NCBI RefSeq assembly: GCF_003334815.1
Contig: NZ_QOWO01000008.1
Length of the DNA: 64,000 nucleotides
Origin: Escherichia coli
Lineage (GTDB): Bacteria > Pseudomonadota > Gammaproteobacteria > Enterobacterales > Enterobacteriaceae
Strand: one strand, 5' to 3'
Position 1 is the first letter of the stretch. Each line of letters starts with the position of its first letter. The notes under the pieces were generated by a model. That model did not search any database. It saw only the letters and a program-made list of their open reading frames with translations, and was not told the origin of the DNA. Below, in pieces: positions 4,915 to 46,353 of this stretch. The position numbers were made by a program, and so were the translations under genes.

Positions 4915-6039
4915 ATGAGCAATCTGAGCCCTGACTTTGTACTACCCGAAAATTTTTGCGCTAACCCGCAAGAGGCGTGGACCATTCCTGCCCGTTTTTA
5001 TACCGATCAGAACGCGTTTGAACACGAAAAAGAGAACGTCTTCGCCAAAAGCTGGATTTGCGTCGCTCACAGCAGCGAACTGGCGAATGCCAATGATTAT
5101 GTGACGCGTGAGATCATTGGCGAAAGCATCGTGCTGGTACGCGGTCGTGATAAGGTTTTGCGCGCGTTCTATAACGTGTGTCCGCACCGTGGTCATCAGT
5201 TGTTGAGCGGTGAAGGAAAAGCAAAAAATGTGATTACCTGCCCGTATCACGCATGGGCATTCAAACTCGATGGCAACCTGGCCCATGCACGTAACTGCGA
5301 AAACGTCGCCAATTTCGATAGCGACAAAGCGCAACTGGTTCCGGTGCGTCTGGAAGAATATGCCGGATTCGTCTTCATCAACATGGACCCCAACGCCACC
5401 AGCGTAGAAGATCAATTACCCGGCCTGGGCGCGAAAGTGCTGGAAGCCTGCCCGGAAGTCCACGATCTGAAACTGGCGGCCCGCTTTACCACCCGCACGC
5501 CTGCCAACTGGAAGAACATTGTCGATAACTATCTCGAGTGCTATCACTGTGGTCCGGCGCATCCAGGTTTCTCCGACTCCGTACAGGTTGATCGTTACTG
5601 GCACACCATGCACGGTAACTGGACGCTGCAATACGGTTTCGCCAAACCGTCCGAACAGTCGTTTAAATTTGAAGAGGGTACGGATGCGGCATTCCACGGT
5701 TTCTGGCTGTGGCCGTGCACGATGCTGAACGTCACCCCGATCAAAGGGATGATGACGGTCATTTATGAATTCCCGGTGGATTCTGAAACTACCCTGCAAA
5801 ACTACGATATTTACTTCACCAATGAAGAGTTAACCGACGAGCAAAAATCGCTGATTGAGTGGTATCGCGATGTGTTCCGTCCGGAAGATTTACGTCTGGT
5901 TGAAAGCGTACAGAAAGGGCTGAAATCGCGTGGCTATCGTGGTCAGGGGCGCATCATGGCCGACAGTAGCGGTAGTGGCATTTCCGAACATGGTATCGCC
6001 CATTTCCATAATCTGCTGGCGCAGGTGTTTAAGGACTAA
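4915..6039 (+). CDS. yeaW: Rieske (2Fe-2S) oxygenase subunit, carnitine monooxygenase CntA-like
   Basis: ORF-track start 4795 is an extension; ATG at 4915 (MSNLSPDFVLPENF...) gives 374 aa; Rieske motif CPHRGHQL...CPYHAW present. Confidence 0.88.
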   Translation: MSNLSPDFVLPENFCANPQEAWTIPARFYTDQNAFEHEKENVFAKSWICVAHSSELANANDYVTREIIGESIVLVRGRDKVLRAFYNVCPHRGHQLLSGEGKAKNVITCPYHAWAFKLDGNLAHARNCENVANFDSDKAQLVPVRLEEYAGFVFINMDPNATSVEDQLPGLGAKVLEACPEVHDLKLAARFTTRTPANWKNIVDNYLECYHCGPAHPGFSDSVQVDRYWHTMHGNWTLQYGFAKPSEQSFKFEEGTDAAFHGFWLWPCTMLNVTPIKGMMTVIYEFPVDSETTLQNYDIYFTNEELTDEQKSLIEWYRDVFRPEDLRLVESVQKGLKSRGYRGQGRIMADSSGSGISEHGIAHFHNLLAQVFKD

Positions 6040-7113: not shown

Positions 7114-8241
7114 TTACTGCGGATATTCCTGCAATAAATTGTGTAATGCTTCCGCCATCAGCTCACCACGCCAGCCGGAAATCAGCTCCGGCAAATTGTT
7201 CTGCGGTTTCAGTTTCCATTGCCAGTTCAGCAGTTGGTTGATTTGCCGACGCGATGCCAGCAATTCGGCGCTGATCTTATGCGTTTCGCTCACGTCAGTA
7301 ATCAGCGACTTAATCGCTTTAAACGCTTTACGATAACCCGGCATGTCCATCAGGTTAAGCATCGGCTGCGGTAAGGCATCTTCCGGCAATGTCTGCGCTT
7401 TTTCCACCAGCGCTAGCAGCGTTTTACCGTGAAAGCGGATTTCGCTACCGGATAAACCCAGGCTGTCCAGTTCGCCTAAACTTCCCGGCATATAACGCGC
7501 TACCGACCACAAATGCTCTTCACGCACGACAAAGTTCACCGCCAGATCGCGCTCTCGCGCCTTGCGCAGTCGCCAGTCGGCTAACAGTTGCAGACAGGCC
7601 AGTTGGCGTGTGCGTAATTGCCAGGCATTGGTGATATCACGCCAGGCATCTTCCGGCGCAACGACTTCCTGACGACGCATTTGCATCAGGCGGCATTCAT
7701 CCAGCGCCGCAGGTAGCCAGCCGGAGGCCTCCGTTTCTACCATAAGCTTGGCGGTGATCGGTAACAGATACCAGACATCCGCCGCTGCGTATTCACACTG
7801 ACGTTCGGTCAGCGGTCTGGCCAGCCAGTCGGTGCGCGATTCACTCTTGTCCAGCGTAACGCCGGAATACTCTTCCACCATGGAAGCGAAACCCCATGAC
7901 ATCGGGCGTCCGCAGAAGGCAGCAAGGATTTGCGTGTCAATCAAGGGTTGTGGTAATTCGCCAAAGACATTGAGGAACACTTCCAGATCTTCACTGCCTG
8001 CATGGAGAAATTTTGTGATGGACGGATCGCGCAGGATCGCTTTCAGCGGTGACCAGTCGGTGATCCCGAGTGGATCGATTAGCGCCAGATGCTCGCCATC
8101 GAAAAGTTGAATCAACCCCAGCTGCGGGTAATAAGTGCGCGTACGAACAAATTCAGTATCCAGGGCTATCGCCGGAAAGGCACGGACGGCTTCACACAAA
8201 GAAGCCAGCGCATCGTCCGTGGTAATCATTTGGTAATTCAA
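7114..8241 (-). CDS. rnd: Ribonuclease D
   Basis: 375 aa, 3'-5' exonuclease (DEDDy) plus HRDC domains; K-12 length. Confidence 0.93.
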   Translation of the reverse strand: MNYQMITTDDALASLCEAVRAFPAIALDTEFVRTRTYYPQLGLIQLFDGEHLALIDPLGITDWSPLKAILRDPSITKFLHAGSEDLEVFLNVFGELPQPLIDTQILAAFCGRPMSWGFASMVEEYSGVTLDKSESRTDWLARPLTERQCEYAAADVWYLLPITAKLMVETEASGWLPAALDECRLMQMRRQEVVAPEDAWRDITNAWQLRTRQLACLQLLADWRLRKARERDLAVNFVVREEHLWSVARYMPGSLGELDSLGLSGSEIRFHGKTLLALVEKAQTLPEDALPQPMLNLMDMPGYRKAFKAIKSLITDVSETHKISAELLASRRQINQLLNWQWKLKPQNNLPELISGWRGELMAEALHNLLQEYPQ

Positions 8242-8244
8242 ATT

Positions 8245-8335
8245 GTTTTCTCTTTAGTGGGCGTCAAAAAAAACGCCGGATTAACCGGCGTCTGGCGTCT
8301 GACGACTGACTTAACGCTCAGGCTTTATTGTCCAC
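8245..8335 (-). ncRNA. sroD: Candidate SroD small RNA (fadD 3' region / rnd upstream)
   Basis: Recalled from the literature as lying between rnd and fadD; exact ends not verifiable here. Overlaps the fadD terminator hairpin. Confidence 0.25.
8266..8290 (-). terminator. Intrinsic terminator downstream of fadD
   Basis: Palindrome CGCCGGATTAACCGGCG with a U8 run on the minus strand (A8 at 8264-8271 on plus). Confidence 0.55.
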
Positions 8336-10003
8336 TTTGCCGCGCGCTTCGTCACGTAATTCTCGTCGCAAAATTTTTCCGACGTTAGATTTCGGTAACT
8401 CATCACGAAACTCCACCAGCTTCGGTACTTTGTATCCCGTGAGCTGACGGCGGCAAAAAGTCACCAGTGACTCTTCGGTAAGCGATGGATCTTTTTTCAC
8501 TACGAAGATTTTCACCGCTTCACCACTGGAGCCGGAAGGTACGCCAACAGCCGCGACTTCCTGTACGCCAGGATGCTGCATGACGACATCTTCAATCTCG
8601 TTGGGATAGACGTTAAAACCGGAAACCAGAATCATGTCTTTTTTACGATCGACAATGCGCAGGAATCCTTCTTCATCCATTACCGCGATGTCGCCGGTGT
8701 GTAACCAGCCATTTTTGATGATTTCATCGGTAGCATCGGGACGCTGCCAGTAACCCAGCATCACCTGCGGTCCTTTGACACAAAGCTCACCCGGTTGACC
8801 TGGTGGTACTTCATTATCATCATCATCCACCAGTTTGGCTTCCGTCGACGGCACCGGCAAACCGATGCTACCACTATGATAATCAATATCATATGGGTTA
8901 ACGCTGACCAGCGGCGCACACTCGGTAAGGCCATAGCCTTCCAGCAGATACTGTCCGGTCAGTTTCACCCAACGCTCTGCCACCACTTGCTGCACTGGCA
9001 TCCCACCGCCTGCGGAAAGATGCAGACTGGAGAAATCCAGCTGCTGGAACTCTTTATTGTTCAGCAACGCATTGAACAAGGTGTTAACGCCCGTGATAGC
9101 GGTAAACGGATATTTCGCTAACTCTTTTACCAACCCTGGAATATCGCGCGGGTTAGTGATAAGCAGGTTCTGCCCACCCAGTTCGATAAACAGCAGGCAG
9201 TTAATGGTCAGGGCAAAAATGTGATACAGCGGCAGCGCCGTCACCACCAGCTCTTTGCCCGGATGCAACAGCGGACCATAGGTCGCGTTAACCTGTTCCA
9301 GGTTCGCCAGCATATTGCGGTGAGTCAGCATCGCGCCTTTCGCCACACCAGTGGTGCCGCCGGTGTATTGCAGAAAAGCTAAATCTTCCGGCACCAGTTC
9401 GGGTTTGACGTACTGCATCCGGTAGCCGTTATGCAGTGCGCTACGAAATGAAATGGCATCTGGCAGATGGTATTTCGGCACCAAACGCTTGATGTATTTA
9501 ACAACGAAATTGACTACCGTGCCTTTTGCCGTAGATAGCTGATCGCCCATACGGGTCAGAATTACGTGCTGAACGGCGGTTTTATCAACCACTTTTTCCA
9601 GTGTGTGAGCAAAGTTAGACACGATAACAATCGCCGATGCGCCGCTATCGTTAAGCTGATGCTCAAGCTCACGCGGGGTATACAACGGGTTAACGTTTAC
9701 GACGATCATCCCGGCACGCAAAATGCCAAACAGCGCCACCGGATATTGCAATAAATTAGGCATCATCAACGCAACGCGATCGCCTTTCTTCAGCCCCAAC
9801 CCTTGTTGCAAATAAGCGGCAAACGCGCGACTGCGTTCTTCCAGCTTGCGGAAGGTCATTACCTCCCCCATATTCACAAACGCAGGTTGATCGGCGTAGC
9901 GCGCGACCGACTGCTCAAACATATCTACCAGAGATTGATAACGGTCAGGGTTGATCTCCGTCGGAACGTCCGCGGGATAACGGTTAAGCCAAACCTTCTT
10001 CAA
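8318..10003 (-). CDS. fadD: Long-chain fatty acid-CoA ligase
   Basis: AMP-binding enzyme; 561 aa from TTG at 10003 ([10 protein letters not shown]...), ORF-track 583 aa form is an upstream extension. Confidence 0.9.
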
Positions 10004-42569: not shown

Positions 42570-43226
42570 TTATTGCAATTGCACAAGAGTCAGTTCGCCC
42601 CCAAAGACAGCACCGGTATCAATATAATGCAGGTTGCCAATATCCACGCGATGTCGCAACGGTGTATGACCAAACCAGAAATGATCAGCACCTGTAATTC
42701 CCTGCCCTTTTTGGCGTTCACCTAATCGCGAGCGGCTCCACAAGACCTGATGCAAATCAACGTCCTTTTGCCATTCATAAACATCATCTGGATAATCGGC
42801 ATGAGCAATAACATGCTTGCCGGTGCGACTGTGTACTTCAAGAATAAAGGGCAAATGCTGACATTTTTCCAGCGCCGTTTTCGCTTGTTTCTGTTGATTA
42901 TCTGCCAGCGCAATAAACCAGTCGCCGCCATTCATCAACCACAAAGACATCTGCTGGGATGCCAGCGCATCCATCGCCATCTGTTCATGATTGCCTCTTA
43001 CCGCACAAACCCAATGTTGTTCCAGTAACTGCAGACAACGTAAACTTTGCGGCCCACGATCGATAACGTCTCCCACTGAGATAAGTAAATCTCGCCACGG
43101 ATCAAAACGACAATGCCATAATTTGCGGCGCAACTGCTCAAGACAACCGTGTATATCGCCAGAAAGCCAGATATGTCGCCATTGATGACCCGCAATTCTC
43201 TGATAAACGGGCGCAGGCTGTTTCAT
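42570..43226 (-). CDS. pphA: Ser/Thr protein phosphatase 1 (PPP family)
   Basis: 218 aa from ATG (MKQPAPVYQ...); metallophosphoesterase motifs GDIHG, GDVIDRG, GNHE. Confidence 0.9.
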   Translation of the reverse strand: MKQPAPVYQRIAGHQWRHIWLSGDIHGCLEQLRRKLWHCRFDPWRDLLISVGDVIDRGPQSLRCLQLLEQHWVCAVRGNHEQMAMDALASQQMSLWLMNGGDWFIALADNQQKQAKTALEKCQHLPFILEVHSRTGKHVIAHADYPDDVYEWQKDVDLHQVLWSRSRLGERQKGQGITGADHFWFGHTPLRHRVDIGNLHYIDTGAVFGGELTLVQLQ

Positions 43227-43299: not shown

Positions 43300-43592
43300 G
43301 AGTGTGTGTTATGGTTGACTATAAAGTCAGCGAAGGAAATGCTTCTGGCTTTTAACAGATAAAAAGAGACCGAACACGATTCCTGTATTCGGTCCAGGGA
43401 AATGGCTCTTGGGAGAGAGCCGTGCGCTAAAAGTTGGCATTAATGCAGGCTTAGTTGCCTTGCCCTTTAAGAATAGATGACGACGCCAGGTTTTCCAGTT
43501 TGCGTGCAAAATGGTCAATAAAAAGCGTGGTGGTCATCAGCTGAAATGTTAAAAACCGCCCGTTCTGGTGAAAGAACTGAGGCGGTTTTTTT
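43300..43592 (+). ncRNA. ryeA: RyeA/SraC small RNA, antisense to SdsR (approximate 5' end)
   Basis: Known sRNA in the pphA-yebY spacer; 3' end set by the intrinsic terminator at 43553-43596. Confidence 0.4.
43357..43460 (-). ncRNA. sdsR: SdsR (RyeB) sigma-S-dependent small RNA
   Basis: Minus strand reads GCAAGGCAACUAAGCCUGCAUUAAUGCCAACUUUUAGCGCACGGCUCUCUCCCAAGAGCC...GACCGAAUACAGGAAUCGUGUUCGGUCUCUUUUU, matching recalled SdsR with its terminator hairpin; sigma-S-like -10 (TATTCT) just upstream. Confidence 0.65.
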
Positions 43593-43596
43593 ATTG
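43553..43596. terminator. Bidirectional intrinsic terminator (RyeA 3' end, also yebY)
   Basis: AAACCGCC...GGCGGTTT hairpin flanked by A5 and T8. Confidence 0.65.
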
Positions 43597-43621
43597 GAAA
43601 TCAAAAGGCTATTTTAGGTAA

Positions 43622-43963
43622 TTAACAGAGTTTTTCAGCTCGTTCTATAAACGGTGCCAGACTCATTTTTTCGCCGGGATTGTTAGGATCATCAATCTGA
43701 ATCACCGAAATGGGTTGGGCATTGGTCTTCCCACTGGCAACTTCCTTTTGTGCGATATCGTTTAAAGGATACTGCACGAGGGTACTCGGATTAATAACAT
43801 ACAAAGCATTACCCGGTCGGCAAGTCAGCATCACCTCTTCGCGATTAAACGCCCATTTGTCTTTACCCACTTCAAAACGACTGACGGTAATCACCTGCGG
43901 TGCAGCCAGCGCCGCTGCAGAACTGGTGAGTAACAGAAACGCCAGAATACTTTTTTTCATCAT
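43622..43963 (-). CDS. yebY: DUF2511 periplasmic protein
   Basis: 113 aa with signal peptide; last gene of yobA-yebZ-yebY. Confidence 0.88.
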
Positions 43964-43975
43964 TTTCGTAATCCA

Positions 43976-44848
43976 TCAAAAAGGTTCGAGAGTCGCAAGC
44001 AGGCTGATGATCACCAGCACTACCGCACCTATCGCCCATTCGAGTTTAGTCATCCACACAAACCAGGGTGCCGCACGATCTTCATCCTGCCTCATGCGCG
44101 GTACAAGAACATAACGATTAGCCAGCGCAATGACCACCATAATCATCACCAGGATGGCTTTGAGCAATAAGAGTTGGCCCCAGTAAGTCGTAAGCGTGGG
44201 GGGAAATCCGGTAATCAACAATGCATTAAGCACGCCGCTTGCCAGTACGCCGATCACCGCAAAATGCCCGCACCAGGAAAAACGCATCAGCGCCTGAATA
44301 GCCTGGTGTCGCCAACGGCCTTTGATGAGTTGCATACACCAGAGCACCGGCAGTAATCCCCCAAACCACGCCGCCGCACAAATCAGGTGAATCGCGTGAT
44401 TAGTCTGATGGATTTTCGCTGTTACCCCTTCATTCAGCGTCGCATGCCCCACTCCCGCCAGCAGAATAAATTGCGCGGTAGTGAGCATAAACAGCAAACG
44501 TGGCATATTCCGCGGTTGCATAAGGGCGACGATCAACGTTACGAGGGCGAGAACAATTTGCCATAACCAGATGCCACCAAACTGCGTTTGCAAAACAGCC
44601 TGCCAAATGTTTGGCGAAAATACATCTGTCCATCCCGTTCCCATCAACCCGCCCTGAACGGCGAGCATTGCAGTGGCACTGATCAAACTCCAGACGGCAG
44701 CGTGCTGTTGTAAACGCAGAAAACGCTTCGCCAGCAAGCGACGAATCGTCAAGGGGGCCAGCCAGGCACCGTACATTGCGAAGCCAAAAACCAGCATCAG
44801 CGAGGTGAAATGGATAAATCGCAGCGCGATCCAGGTAAACGCCAGCAT
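43976..44848 (-). CDS. yebZ: CopD-family inner membrane protein
   Basis: 290 aa, 8-TM CopD-like copper resistance family. Confidence 0.88.
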   Translation of the reverse strand: MLAFTWIALRFIHFTSLMLVFGFAMYGAWLAPLTIRRLLAKRFLRLQQHAAVWSLISATAMLAVQGGLMGTGWTDVFSPNIWQAVLQTQFGGIWLWQIVLALVTLIVALMQPRNMPRLLFMLTTAQFILLAGVGHATLNEGVTAKIHQTNHAIHLICAAAWFGGLLPVLWCMQLIKGRWRHQAIQALMRFSWCGHFAVIGVLASGVLNALLITGFPPTLTTYWGQLLLLKAILVMIMVVIALANRYVLVPRMRQDEDRAAPWFVWMTKLEWAIGAVVLVIISLLATLEPF

Positions 44849-44851
44849 GAT

Positions 44852-45226
44852 TTATTTCACGCTAAAGGTGTAGTGTCCTTTCGTTTTATGCCCGTCCACC
44901 GAAACAACATGCCAGTCAACGGTGTAGGTTCCGGGTTTCAGCGAATCGGCCAGTGGAACAATCAGTTGCTTTTGGTCCTGCTCATTTCGCTTCGCCGGTA
45001 ATGTTTTAATATTTTCGTTTTTTGGCCCCGTGATTTTTGCACCACTGAATCCTGTTTCAACACCTTCCGAGAAGTTTAAAGTGATTGCCTGCGGTGCAGC
45101 TGTCACTTGCGCGTTTGCCGCAGGATACTGATGCGTTAAATGCGCATGTGCCCAGACGGAAGGTGTCACCAACGAAGTGGTCAGGATTGCCAGCGCGTAG
45201 CGAAGGGAGCGTGCAGTTGAAGCCAT
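44852..45226 (-). CDS. yobA: CopC-family periplasmic copper-binding protein
   Basis: 124 aa, signal peptide followed by the N-terminal His (HAHL) typical of CopC. Confidence 0.88.
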   Translation of the reverse strand: MASTARSLRYALAILTTSLVTPSVWAHAHLTHQYPAANAQVTAAPQAITLNFSEGVETGFSGAKITGPKNENIKTLPAKRNEQDQKQLIVPLADSLKPGTYTVDWHVVSVDGHKTKGHYTFSVK

Positions 45227-45696: not shown

Positions 45697-46353
45697 ATGT
45701 CGTTCTGGAAAGTTGCAGCAGCGCAATATGAGCCTCGTAAAACCTCACTCACCGAACAGGTAGCTCATCATCTGGAGTTTGTGAGGGCCGCCGCCAGGCA
45801 ACAATGTCAGCTGTTAGTTTTTCCATCGCTTTCTTTACTGGGGTGTGATTATTCGCGACGTGCCCTTCCTGCCCCACCCGATCTCTCACTGTTAGACCCG
45901 CTTTGTTATGCCGCAACGACCTGGCGAATGACCATCATTGCCGGCCTTCCCATTGAATATAACGATCGCTTTATTCGTGGAATTGCGGTGTTCGCACCGT
46001 GGCGAAAAACGCCTGGGATCTACCATCAGAGTCATGGTGCATGTCTGGGCCGTCGTTCCAGAACCATCACGGTGGTCGATGAACAACCGCAAGGTATGGA
46101 TATGGACCCGACCTGTTCACTGTTTACTACAGGGCAATGTCTGGGAGAACCCGACCTGCTGGCGTCGGCCCGTCGCTTACAATTTTTTTCACATCAGTAC
46201 TCGATTGCCGTGCTGATGGCAAATGCCCGTGGTAACAGTGCACTATGGGATGAATATGGTCGTCTCATCGTTCGCGCCGATCGTGGTTCATTATTGTTAG
46301 TCGGTCAGCGTTCATCACAGGGTTGGCAAGGCGATATCATTCCATTACGCTAG
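45697..46353 (+). CDS. yobB: Carbon-nitrogen hydrolase family protein
   Basis: 218 aa. Confidence 0.82.
   Translation: MSFWKVAAAQYEPRKTSLTEQVAHHLEFVRAAARQQCQLLVFPSLSLLGCDYSRRALPAPPDLSLLDPLCYAATTWRMTIIAGLPIEYNDRFIRGIAVFAPWRKTPGIYHQSHGACLGRRSRTITVVDEQPQGMDMDPTCSLFTTGQCLGEPDLLASARRLQFFSHQYSIAVLMANARGNSALWDEYGRLIVRADRGSLLLVGQRSSQGWQGDIIPLR

What the first reader, a model, noticed from the sequence alone, without database searches (positions are those of the whole stretch)
43300..43600. Overlapping antisense sRNA pair SdsR/RyeA with back-to-back terminators
The pphA-yebY spacer encodes SdsR on the minus strand (terminator GACCGAAUACAGGAAUCGUGUUCGGUC plus U-run) and RyeA on the plus strand (ending at the 43553-43596 terminator), fully overlapping each other. 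This is a known sRNA/anti-sRNA sponge pair. It sits immediately upstream of the yobA-yebZ-yebY copper-like module, which SdsR processing may influence.
Basis: partly seen in the sequence, partly recalled or inferred. Interest (0 to 1): 0.3.

Follow-up and report, generated by a model that had tools for sequence, protein, structure and literature searches.

The report
Known E. coli SdsR/RyeA antisense pair

Summary
The identification is correct and already known. The window matches E. coli K-12 MG1655 at 6000 of 6001 bases here. The curated genes therefore map exactly: sdsR (b4433) = 43361-43464 (-), 104 nt; ryeA (b4432) = 43323-43594 (+), 272 nt. Rfam hits both at full model length (RF00111 114 bits, RF00101 175 bits; gathering scores 38 and 37). 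The quoted SdsR terminator is at 43368-43394 (-), and the RyeA terminator is a hairpin at 43551-43585 with a U7 run at 43586-43592.

Three corrections:
1. Only SdsR is fully overlapped. RyeA extends 38 nt beyond it at its 5' end and 130 nt at its 3' end.
2. The two terminators are not back-to-back. They sit at opposite outer ends. RyeA's hairpin is bidirectional and shared with convergent yebY.
3. yobA-yebZ-yebY is on the minus strand and reads towards the locus, so the sRNAs lie downstream of it. The gene shown to be coupled to sdsR is pphA, by read-through (PMC6610125).

Mechanism (published): sigma-S-dependent SdsR is an Hfq-dependent trans-acting repressor. Sigma-70-dependent RyeA antagonises it by RNase III co-degradation and transcriptional interference.

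Comparative work here reproduced published conclusions: SdsR structure covaries strongly, yebY-sdsR synteny holds in 51 of 54 Enterobacterales, and the sdsR 3' end is a prophage attachment site in 228 of 5426 E. coli genomes. Interest is low.

The parts
43307..43315 (+). ryeA sigma-70 promoter: extended -10, TG (43307-43308) + t + TATGGT (43310-43315)
   Evidence: Sequence read directly. TATGGT is the hexamer replaced by CTCGAG in the ryeA -10 mutagenesis primer RyeA-p3 (TGTGTGTCTCGAGTGACTATAAAG) of PMC6610125. In vitro, ryeA is transcribed only by E-sigma70.
43323..43594 (+). RyeA (SraC) antisense small RNA, 272 nt as annotated (b4432)
   Evidence: Mapped from NC_000913.3 1923066-1923337. Rfam RF00101 covers only 43357-43501, at 175.1 bits. 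Published 5' end +1 = 43323; 3' RACE ends +261 to +270 = 43583-43592. MFE -93 kcal/mol, z = -4.3.
43361..43464 (-). SdsR (RyeB) small RNA, 104 nt as annotated (b4433); this is also the 104-bp SdsR:RyeA duplex region
   Evidence: Mapped from NC_000913.3 1923104-1923207. RF00111 114.4 bits at full model length. MFE -35.2 kcal/mol, z = -3.8, three hairpins. Primer extension places the start 1 nt downstream, at 43463, with 3' ends +100 to +102.
43470..43497 (-). sdsR sigma-S promoter: -35-like TGGAAA (43497-43492), 16-bp spacer, -10 TATTCT (43475-43470), with -13 C, -14 T, -8 C and an A/T-rich discriminator
   Evidence: Coordinates computed. Every feature matches the sigma-S selectivity criteria listed for sdsR in PMC3333887. 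The CTGGAAAA and TCTATTCTT blocks are conserved across the Enterobacterales loci.
43361..43395 (-). SdsR Rho-independent terminator: 11-pair stem 43395-43367, then CUUUUU. It is unidirectional; on the plus strand the same hairpin is followed by AGGGAAAUGG, with no U run
   Evidence: In the 55-sequence alignment, all 9 modelled pairs of this helix show compensatory double changes. 97.1% of cells are paired, against 81.8% in shuffles (0 of 500 reach the observed value) and at most 49% in slid controls.
43404..43421 (-). SdsR central hairpin GGCUCU-CUCCCA-AGAGCC (SdsR nt 44-61)
   Evidence: Fold and Rfam structure line. Five pairs were fixed by my search pattern and are uninformative. The sixth flips A-U/U-A at 29:16 across taxa.
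43422..43463 (-). SdsR 5' part: a small 5' hairpin plus the conserved single-stranded stretch CAUUAAUGCCAACUUUUAGCGCAC (target-pairing region); the RNase E-dependent processed form starts near +31 (about 43433)
   Evidence: Fold. AAUGCCAACUUU is invariant in the 54 Enterobacterales loci. Processed 5' ends at +31 to +34. SdsR+31 lacks nt 1-30, depends on RNase E and cannot repress ompD.
43551..43592 (.). Bidirectional intrinsic terminator shared by RyeA (+) and yobA-yebZ-yebY (-): A5-CCGCC...GGCGG-U7 on the plus strand, A7...U5 on the minus strand
   Evidence: Both strands fold (z = -4.6 on plus, -5.5 on minus). RyeA 3' ends map to 43583-43592. 27 nt separate the RyeA end from the yebY stop codon. 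An A-run/CCGC..GCGG/T-run hairpin at about the same distance from sdsR is present in most Enterobacteriaceae genera examined.
43360..43391 (.). Prophage attachment core (attB), unoccupied in this window; it covers the last ~31 nt of sdsR
   Evidence: In E. coli F2_407_2_2 both ends of a ~47-kb lambdoid prophage (integrase/excisionase at one end, nleC at the other) carry this 32-bp segment. The integrase-side junction is present in 228 of 5426 complete E. coli genomes. The Salmonella phage PhiW104 analogue uses the last 23 bp of ryeB.
42570..43226 (-). pphA (phosphoprotein phosphatase 1), downstream of sdsR and co-transcribed with it by terminator read-through
   Evidence: Annotation and ORF. 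The read-through sdsR-pphA transcript and its dependence on the sdsR promoter are shown in PMC6610125.
43622..45226 (-). yobA-yebZ-yebY (CopC-like, CopD-family and DUF2511 proteins), transcribed towards the sRNA locus; conserved upstream neighbour of sdsR
   Evidence: Annotation. tblastn synteny: yebY lies directly upstream on the same strand in 51 of 54 Enterobacterales loci.

Best explanation
The 43300-43600 interval is the E. coli K-12 sdsR/ryeA (ryeB/sraC) locus.

SdsR (104 nt, minus strand) is transcribed in stationary phase from a sigma-S-selective promoter and ends at its own intrinsic terminator. [quoted passage not shown]

RyeA (272 nt, plus strand) is transcribed from a sigma-70 extended -10 promoter that lies just beyond the sdsR terminator. 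It runs antisense across the whole of sdsR and the sdsR promoter, and stops at a bidirectional terminator shared with convergent yebY.

RyeA antagonises SdsR in two ways. The perfect 104-bp RyeA:SdsR duplex is cleaved by RNase III, so each RNA destroys the other. Convergent transcription from PryeA also interferes with PsdsR. Some sdsR transcription reads through the SdsR terminator into pphA, so RyeA transcription indirectly lowers pphA expression as well.

Shown here: identity, coordinates, promoter and terminator anatomy, RNA structure conservation, and synteny. Taken from the literature: sigma-factor dependence, RNase III co-degradation, transcriptional interference, read-through into pphA, and the mRNA targets.
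For: Identity: 6000 of 6001 bases match MG1655, where ryeA b4432 and sdsR b4433 are curated.

Rfam: full-length hits at 175.1 and 114.4 bits against gathering scores of 37 and 38.

Terminators: folding z-scores of -3.1 (SdsR), -4.6 (RyeA, plus strand) and -5.5 (the same hairpin on the minus strand). Published RACE 3' ends fall on the U-runs.

Promoters: TATGGT at 43310-43315 equals the mutated ryeA -10. The sdsR -10 TATTCT carries -13C, -14T, -8C and a 16-bp spacer, as described in PMC3333887.

Structure: in 55 sequences from Enterobacterales, Alteromonadales, Aeromonadales and related groups, all 9 terminator pairs have compensatory changes. The covariation score is 0.485 against 0.192 in shuffles (0 of 500 reach it), and slid controls reach at most 0.113. 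Internal wobble positions favour the SdsR strand, 23 G.U to 6 A.C.

[quoted passage not shown] E-sigmaS makes SdsR and E-sigma70 makes RyeA in vitro. Promoter mutants show reciprocal effects and pphA read-through (PMC6610125).

Core locus: it is present in all 5426 complete E. coli genomes and contiguous in 5189 of them.
Against: Nothing in the sequence contradicts this.

Caveats:
- No expression data can be generated with these tools, so every functional step rests on the cited papers.
- Rfam RF00101 is largely the reverse complement of SdsR plus the sdsR promoter. It does not cover RyeA's first 34 nt or last 93 nt, so its hit is not independent evidence for RyeA.
- RyeA's promoter region is not conserved outside close relatives (PMC3333887), so RyeA's role may be lineage-specific.
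- PMC6610125 reports that mutS did not behave as a primary SdsR target.
- The consensus promoter scan found neither real promoter, and its single terminator hit was not above the shuffle expectation.
Confidence: 0.95

Rival explanations
1. RyeA is a pure sponge. It titrates SdsR away from its mRNA targets by sequestration alone, without promoting decay or acting at the level of transcription. This is the literal reading of the first reader's 'sponge pair'.
For: Perfect 104-nt complementarity would certainly allow sequestration. Reviews group the pair with RNA antagonists and sponges (PMC8687705).
Against: PMC6610125 shows mutual degradation aided by RNase III, and transcriptional interference that persists in vitro and is independent of the sdsR terminator. 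PMC7373196 finds ~21-bp RNase III products from the locus in vivo.
Confidence: 0.05
2. The locus is primarily an RNA-RNA toxin-antitoxin module: SdsR is a toxin that kills by repressing yhcB, RyeA is its antitoxin, and trans-regulation of porin and efflux mRNAs is secondary.
For: Proposed by Choi et al. 2018 and 2019 and listed in toxin-antitoxin databases and reviews.
Against: Toxicity was seen on SdsR overexpression. SdsR is conserved far beyond the organisms that have a recognisable ryeA/sraC (PMC3333887). It reaches about 300 copies per cell in normal stationary phase without killing. [quoted passage not shown]
Confidence: 0.15
3. One reading: the sRNA pair, or SdsR processing, regulates the adjacent yobA-yebZ-yebY copper-related operon in cis.
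For: Strong conserved synteny, with yebY directly upstream of sdsR on the same strand in 51 of 54 Enterobacterales. RyeA converges on yebY and shares its terminator, ending 27 nt from the yebY stop codon.
Against: SdsR does not overlap the operon at all, and RyeA stops before the yebY coding sequence. yebY does not occur in the text of PMC6610125 (0 occurrences), although I did not inspect its supplementary RNA-seq tables.
Confidence: 0.07
4. The matches are chance or merely homologous sequence, and no RNA genes are present here.
For: PGAP-annotated RefSeq genomes list no feature under the match.
Against: E-values of 1e-21 to 1e-40, identity to the curated MG1655 genes, covariation, and published Northern blots, RACE, in vitro transcription and dsRNA capture. 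The missing PGAP features reflect that pipeline's annotation of these records, not absence of the genes.
Confidence: 0.01

Closest known systems
E. coli K-12 MG1655 sdsR (b4433, RyeB; Rfam RF00111) and ryeA (b4432, SraC; Rfam RF00101)
   Same: Identical sequence, coordinates, flanking genes, promoters and terminators. This is that locus.
   Different: Nothing within the locus. The only difference from MG1655 in the surrounding 6 kb is one base in yobB (window 45952, Val86Ile).
Salmonella enterica SdsR/SraC (Frohlich et al. 2012, PMC3333887)
   Same: Same SdsR 5' end, sigma-S promoter features, position downstream of yebY, three-hairpin structure, RNase E-dependent +31 processing, and reciprocal expression with the antisense RNA.
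   Different: Salmonella and Shigella SraC is about 35 nt longer because its -10 box lies further upstream. The ompD target is not expressed in K-12. The gene 3' of sdsR is variable.
Other cis-encoded sRNA/anti-sRNA pairs processed by RNase III, such as Campylobacter jejuni CJnc190/CJnc180 (PMC8687705)
   Same: Two sRNAs from opposite strands, one acting in trans and the other antagonising it. Both pairs are RNase III substrates, show inverse expression, and may involve transcriptional interference.
   Different: Unrelated sequences and organisms. In C. jejuni, RNase III matures the active sRNA; here it degrades both partners.
sRNA or tRNA 3' ends used as phage attB, such as PhiW104 at Salmonella ryeB (Balbontin et al. 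2008, cited in PMC7380047 and PMC3603311)
   Same: The attachment core is the 3'-terminal terminator segment of sdsR. Integration regenerates an intact sdsR but separates ryeA's promoter and 5' end from the rest.
   Different: The E. coli element found here is a ~47-kb lambdoid prophage carrying nleC, with a 32-bp shared core against 23 bp. The site is empty in this window.

Membership tests
Rfam RF00111 SdsR_RyeB | Covariance-model score at or above the curated gathering score, over the full model | tested here: met
   114.4 bits against a gathering score of 38, model positions 1-100 of 100, E = 1.8e-21, at 43460-43361 (-).
Rfam RF00111 SdsR_RyeB | Three-hairpin architecture ending in a Rho-independent terminator, supported by covariation | tested here: met
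   Fold z = -3.8. All 9 terminator-helix pairs covary across 55 sequences. Shuffle control 0 of 500; slid controls far lower.
Rfam RF00111 SdsR_RyeB | Sigma-S-selective promoter (-13 C, -14 G/T, -8 C, 16-bp spacer, A/T-rich discriminator) as defined in PMC3333887 | tested here: met
   All features are present at 43470-43497 (-), matching the criteria quoted. Actual sigma-S dependence is taken from the literature only.
Rfam RF00111 SdsR_RyeB | Genomic position directly downstream of yebY on the same strand (Enterobacterales) | tested here: met
   yebY 43622-43963 (-) and sdsR 43361-43464 (-). The same arrangement holds in 51 of 54 Enterobacterales loci.
Rfam RF00111 SdsR_RyeB | Hfq-dependent base-pairing repression of target mRNAs (tolC, yhcB, ompD and others) | not testable with these tools
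   Literature only.
Rfam RF00101 SraC_RyeA | Covariance-model score at or above the gathering score | tested here: met
   175.1 bits against 37, model positions 1-145 of 145, at 43357-43501 (+). The model is mostly the complement of SdsR and covers only the middle of the 272-nt RNA, so this is weak as independent evidence.
Rfam RF00101 SraC_RyeA | Own sigma-70 promoter beyond the sdsR terminator, and own intrinsic terminator beyond the sdsR promoter | tested here: met
   Extended -10 TGtTATGGT at 43307-43315 equals the experimentally mutated -10. Terminator hairpin plus U7 at 43551-43592, z = -4.6, coincides with the RACE 3' ends.
Rfam RF00101 SraC_RyeA | Identity to the curated gene b4432 | tested here: met
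   100% over 272 nt.
RNase III-processed cis-antisense sRNA pair | Extended perfect duplex between two independently transcribed RNAs | tested here: met
   104-bp overlap at 43361-43464, with separate promoters and terminators on each strand.
RNase III-processed cis-antisense sRNA pair | RNase III-dependent mutual cleavage in vivo | not testable with these tools
   Literature: top p19-captured dsRNA cluster with ~21-bp products; model in PMC6610125.
Sponge RNA in the strict sense (sequestration without decay) | Antagonist acts by titration only | not testable with these tools
   Published data point to co-degradation and transcriptional interference instead, so I do not file the pair under strict sponges.
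RNA-RNA toxin-antitoxin system | Toxin overexpression is lethal and is rescued by the antitoxin | not testable with these tools
   Claimed by Choi et al. 2018 and 2019. No sequence feature can test it.
Bidirectional intrinsic terminator | G+C-rich hairpin flanked by an A-run on the 5' side and a T-run on the 3' side, so that both strands read hairpin plus U-tail | tested here: met
   AAAAACCGCC...GGCGGTTTTTTT at 43551-43592. Both strands fold, with z = -4.6 and -5.5. Of the 54 Enterobacterales loci, 26 met both flank criteria, 29 met the A-run criterion alone, and several more contain the motif inside an over-extended hairpin.

The most novel reading that the evidence does not exclude
The yebY-proximal terminator keeps a symmetric A-run/hairpin/T-run form at a fixed distance from sdsR across Enterobacteriaceae genera whose ryeA promoter regions are unrelated. 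This could mean that antisense transcription across sdsR is maintained much more widely than the recognisable sraC/ryeA gene suggests. Its promoter might be repeatedly replaced as islands and prophages integrate at the sdsR 3' end. The invariant yobA-yebZ-yebY-to-sdsR linkage might also reflect real functional coupling through this shared terminator. Nothing here demonstrates either point. A symmetric terminator could equally be a neutral feature of that hairpin family.
Probability: 0.15. Interest if true: 0.3.

Novelty: already known. Interest (0 to 1): 0.06.

Why it matters
As a discovery it does not matter. The locus has been annotated since 2001 and dissected in detail: promoters, ends, sigma factors, RNase III, read-through into pphA, targets and prophage integration.

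Its value for the scan is as a positive control. A reader without tools recognised a real overlapping sRNA pair and both terminators to within a few bases.

The corrections matter for anyone reusing the annotation. The operon next door ends at the locus rather than starting there, the coupled gene is pphA, and an Rfam RyeA hit should not be taken as independent proof of an antisense RNA.

Tried and rejected
1. Whole-sequence strand test. I compared the MFE of the SdsR-sense and RyeA-sense strands over 82 unique core-plus-terminator sequences. I expected SdsR to be favoured, but the antisense strand folded better in 71 of 82. I rejected the test as confounded. SdsR's linkers are C/A-rich, so the complement is G/U-rich and wobble-pairs promiscuously (195 G.U against 78). 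I replaced it with a helix-restricted count of internal non-Watson-Crick positions, which gave 23 G.U to 6 A.C. A first version of that count (100 to 41) was inflated by helix extension into the loop.

2. My first trimming of terminators at the first T-run cut some sequences inside the hairpin. I redid it with fold-defined ends.

3. The consensus promoter and terminator scan found neither experimentally defined promoter and missed the RyeA terminator, whose stem has a bulge. Its counts were not above shuffle expectation, so I did not use it as evidence beyond locating the SdsR terminator.

4. PGAP-annotated E. coli records show no feature under the match. Only the curated MG1655 record carries the genes.

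5. I looked for short ORFs in RyeA. There are five ATG ORFs of 3-14 codons, none with a well-spaced Shine-Dalgarno sequence, so there is no case for a small protein. The 63-codon TTG ORF at 43327-43518 (-) simply spans sdsR and was not pursued.

6. I searched the held flanks of 116 loci for extra partial copies of the sdsR 3' end, as integration footprints. I found none except the Zobellella tandem duplication. The flanks are too short to exclude large islands.

Full report
**What is in the sequence**

Window 40757-46757 matches E. coli K-12 MG1655 (NC_000913.3 1920500-1926500) at 6000 of 6001 positions. The offset is fixed (record coordinate minus window coordinate = 1,879,743), so the curated features transfer exactly:
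- pphA 42570-43226 (-)
- ryeA (b4432) 43323-43594 (+), 272 nt
- sdsR (b4433) 43361-43464 (-), 104 nt
- yebY 43622-43963 (-)
- yebZ 43976-44848 (-)
- yobA 44852-45226 (-)

An independent Rfam scan of the whole window gives full-length hits at the same place. RF00111 SdsR_RyeB hits 43460-43361 (-) at 114.4 bits (gathering score 38, E = 1.8e-21). RF00101 SraC_RyeA hits 43357-43501 (+) at 175.1 bits (gathering score 37, E = 2.9e-40). The locus is present in all 5426 complete E. coli genomes searched and is contiguous in 5189 of them.

**Anatomy of SdsR**

The full stem is 43395-43367 (11 pairs) followed by CUUUUU (-15.8 kcal/mol, z = -3.1). SdsR as a whole folds into three hairpins (-35.2 kcal/mol, z = -3.8).

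Upstream on the minus strand lie a -10 TATTCT (43475-43470), a 16-bp spacer and a -35-like TGGAAA (43497-43492). The promoter has C at -13, T at -14, C at -8 and an A/T-rich discriminator. These are exactly the sigma-S selectivity features listed for sdsR by Frohlich et al. (PMC3333887).

**Anatomy of RyeA**

RyeA starts at 43323, downstream of an extended -10, TGtTATGGT (43307-43315). TATGGT is the hexamer that Choi et al. replaced with CTCGAG to make their ryeA promoter mutant (PMC6610125, primer RyeA-p3).

RyeA ends at a hairpin (43551-43585) followed by U7 (43586-43592) (-20.2 kcal/mol, z = -4.6). The published 3' RACE ends, +261 to +270, correspond to 43583-43592. The same paper places the SdsR start 1 nt downstream of the annotated one (43463) and its 3' ends at +100 to +102.

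1. 'Fully overlapping each other' holds only for SdsR, which lies wholly inside RyeA. RyeA has 38 nt at its 5' end and 130 nt at its 3' end with no SdsR partner.

2. The two terminators are not back-to-back. They lie about 160 bp apart at the opposite outer ends of the locus. The SdsR terminator is unidirectional: read on the plus strand, the hairpin is followed by AGGGAAAUGG, so RyeA transcribes through it. The RyeA terminator is bidirectional. The same hairpin folds on the minus strand (-19.8 kcal/mol, z = -5.5) with a U5 tail, 27 nt past the yebY stop codon. It is therefore back-to-back with the terminator of the convergent yobA-yebZ-yebY operon.

3. That operon is on the minus strand and reads towards the sRNAs, so the locus is downstream of it, not upstream. 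I found nothing linking SdsR processing to it. The neighbour that does depend on sdsR is pphA: most pphA transcription starts at the sdsR promoter and reads through the SdsR terminator (PMC6610125).

**How it works**

- E-sigmaS makes SdsR and E-sigma70 makes RyeA in vitro. Both RNAs are primary transcripts ending at intrinsic terminators.
- Expression is reciprocal. [quoted passage not shown] Transcription from PryeA also interferes with PsdsR, which lowers SdsR and pphA.
- In vivo, ryeA-ryeB is the most abundant stationary-phase dsRNA cluster captured by p19, with ~21-bp RNase III products (PMC7373196).
[quoted passage not shown] An RNase E-dependent form lacking nt 1-30 cannot repress ompD.
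- The pair has been called a toxin-antitoxin system made of two RNAs. 'Sponge' is used loosely for such antagonists, but one group suggests reserving it for pure sequestration (PMC8687705).

**Comparative evidence generated here**

Of these, 54 are Enterobacterales-type, with the invariant AAUGCCAACUUU just upstream of the core. The other 66 come from Shewanella, Idiomarina, Rheinheimera, Alteromonas, Colwellia, Zobellella and relatives. Rfam's SdsR model scores sampled distant loci above its gathering score (48-68 bits), so this breadth is already within the curated family.

- **Covariation.** In a 55-sequence alignment, all 9 modelled pairs of the terminator helix show compensatory double changes. 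97.1% of cells are paired, against 81.8% in shuffles (0 of 500 reach the observed value) and at most 49% when partners are slid. The covariation score is 0.485 against 0.192. Five of the six central-hairpin pairs were fixed by the search pattern and say nothing. The sixth flips A-U/U-A at 29:16.
- **Strand of selection.** Internal wobble positions in 61 distinct terminator helices favour the SdsR strand, 23 G.U to 6 A.C. This agrees with the non-standard-pair ('v') marks Rfam places on the RyeA-sense copy of that hairpin in this window.
- **Synteny.** yebY lies directly upstream on the same strand in 51 of 54 Enterobacterales loci. pphA is found downstream in only 9, at +175 to +2947 nt. None of these genes neighbours the non-enterobacterial homologues.
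- **RyeA conservation.** Sequence downstream of the SdsR terminator, where PryeA lies in E. coli, is unrelated between genera.

One detail I did not see stated in the papers I read. The A-run/CCGC..GCGG/T-run terminator sits about 120 nt upstream of the core in most Enterobacteriaceae genera, with freely varying loop and inner stem. It is not recognisable in Yersinia, Serratia, Erwinia, Rahnella, Dickeya or Hafnia.

**Mobile elements at the locus**

About 237 E. coli genomes lack a contiguous locus.

In strain F2_407_2_2 a ~47-kb lambdoid prophage separates pphA from sdsR. It has integrase and excisionase at one end and the effector gene nleC at the other. Both junctions carry window 43360-43391, which is the last ~31 nt of sdsR. 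Integration leaves an intact sdsR next to yebY. It moves the ryeA promoter, the first 69 nt of RyeA, and pphA 47 kb away. The integrase-side junction is present in 228 of 5426 genomes.

In strain FDAARGOS_944 an IS1 interrupts the 5' part of sdsR.

Use of the ryeB 3' end as a phage attachment site, and its effect on ryeA and ryeB expression, is documented for Salmonella phage PhiW104 (Balbontin et al. 2008, as summarised in PMC7380047, and PMC3603311). The site is empty in this window.

**Verdict**

This is the known sdsR/ryeA locus of E. coli K-12, correctly recognised. Novelty: already known. Interest is low (0.06).

The most novel reading not excluded is that antisense transcription across sdsR, terminated at the shared yebY hairpin, is conserved more widely than the recognisable ryeA gene, and that the yebY-sdsR linkage is functional. 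I put this at about 0.15 probability and modest interest even if true.

Noticed in passing
window 45952 (yobB, 45697-46353 +): This is the only difference from MG1655 in the 6001 nt around the locus: A instead of G, which changes yobB codon 86 from Val to Ile. The window is K-12-like but is not the MG1655 reference sequence itself.
   Followed up: partly
window 43611-43638 (-): A sigma-70-like match (CTGAAA, 16 nt, TAAAAT) straddles the yebY stop codon, about 150-175 nt upstream of the sdsR start. This is roughly where an older report placed a pphA heat-shock promoter ('about 180 bp upstream of the sdsR promoter'). PMC6610125 detected no activity from that promoter. The same scan missed both real promoters.
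   Followed up: no
window 27408-27868 (-) and 8267-8359 (-): Two other Rfam hits above gathering score. RF01766 (cspA thermoregulator, 135.5 bits) falls, by the MG1655 offset and from memory of the map, in the yobF-cspC region. RF00370 is sroD (105.3 bits). Both are expected K-12 features.
   Followed up: no
L004 (E. coli F2_407_2_2, NZ_CP074756.1 2568400-2618300); att core = window 43360-43391: A ~47-kb lambdoid prophage carrying the type III effector gene nleC is integrated at the sdsR 3' end. It separates pphA and the ryeA promoter and 5' end from sdsR. The integrase-side junction occurs in 228 of 5426 complete E. coli genomes.
   Followed up: yes
L003 (E. coli FDAARGOS_944, NZ_CP065613.1), insertion near window 43438-43457: An IS1A element is inserted in the 5' part of sdsR, which also disrupts RyeA. 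The adjacent copD/yebZ gene is annotated as truncated in the same strain.
   Followed up: partly
L079 (Yersinia artesiana, NZ_CACVAD010000087.1) around 8008-8036: sdsR is inverted relative to yobA-yebZ-yebY: yebY is convergent and ends about 95 nt past the SdsR core. Y. aldovae (L007) and L107 keep the usual yebY-to-sdsR order. The cause, whether an inversion or a rearrangement, was not determined.
   Followed up: partly
L053 (Zobellella taiwanensis) 940-967 and 1492-1519: Two identical tandem copies of the SdsR homologue lie 552 nt apart, each with its upstream region. This is the only locus of 116 tested that has a second copy of the sdsR 3' end within the held flanks.
   Followed up: partly
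L005-L124, non-enterobacterial loci (e.g. L010, L011, L036, L043): Distant SdsR homologues keep the UAGCGCACGGCUC...GAGCCAUU hairpin, a CCCCU linker, the terminator and a CTAYACT-type -10 upstream. Their 5' regions are unrelated to the enterobacterial one, and many contain a C-rich CUCUCCC-like stretch. This suggests a different seed and different targets. None has yebY or pphA nearby.
   Followed up: partly
H38, PP818812.1 ('Actinobacillus phage vB_Apl-pPE4') 46270-47508: The integrase region of the sdsR-targeting E. coli prophage is 96% identical at the DNA level to a phage record labelled with an Actinobacillus pleuropneumoniae host. That is an unexpected host label for an E. coli-type lambdoid integrase.
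   Followed up: no
Rfam RF00101 against the real RyeA, window 43357-43501 against 43323-43594: The Rfam SraC_RyeA model covers only the middle 145 nt of the 272-nt RNA. That part is essentially the complement of SdsR plus the sdsR promoter. In distant taxa it scores just above threshold (37-57 bits) wherever SdsR is present, so its hits do not show that an antisense RNA exists there.
   Followed up: yes
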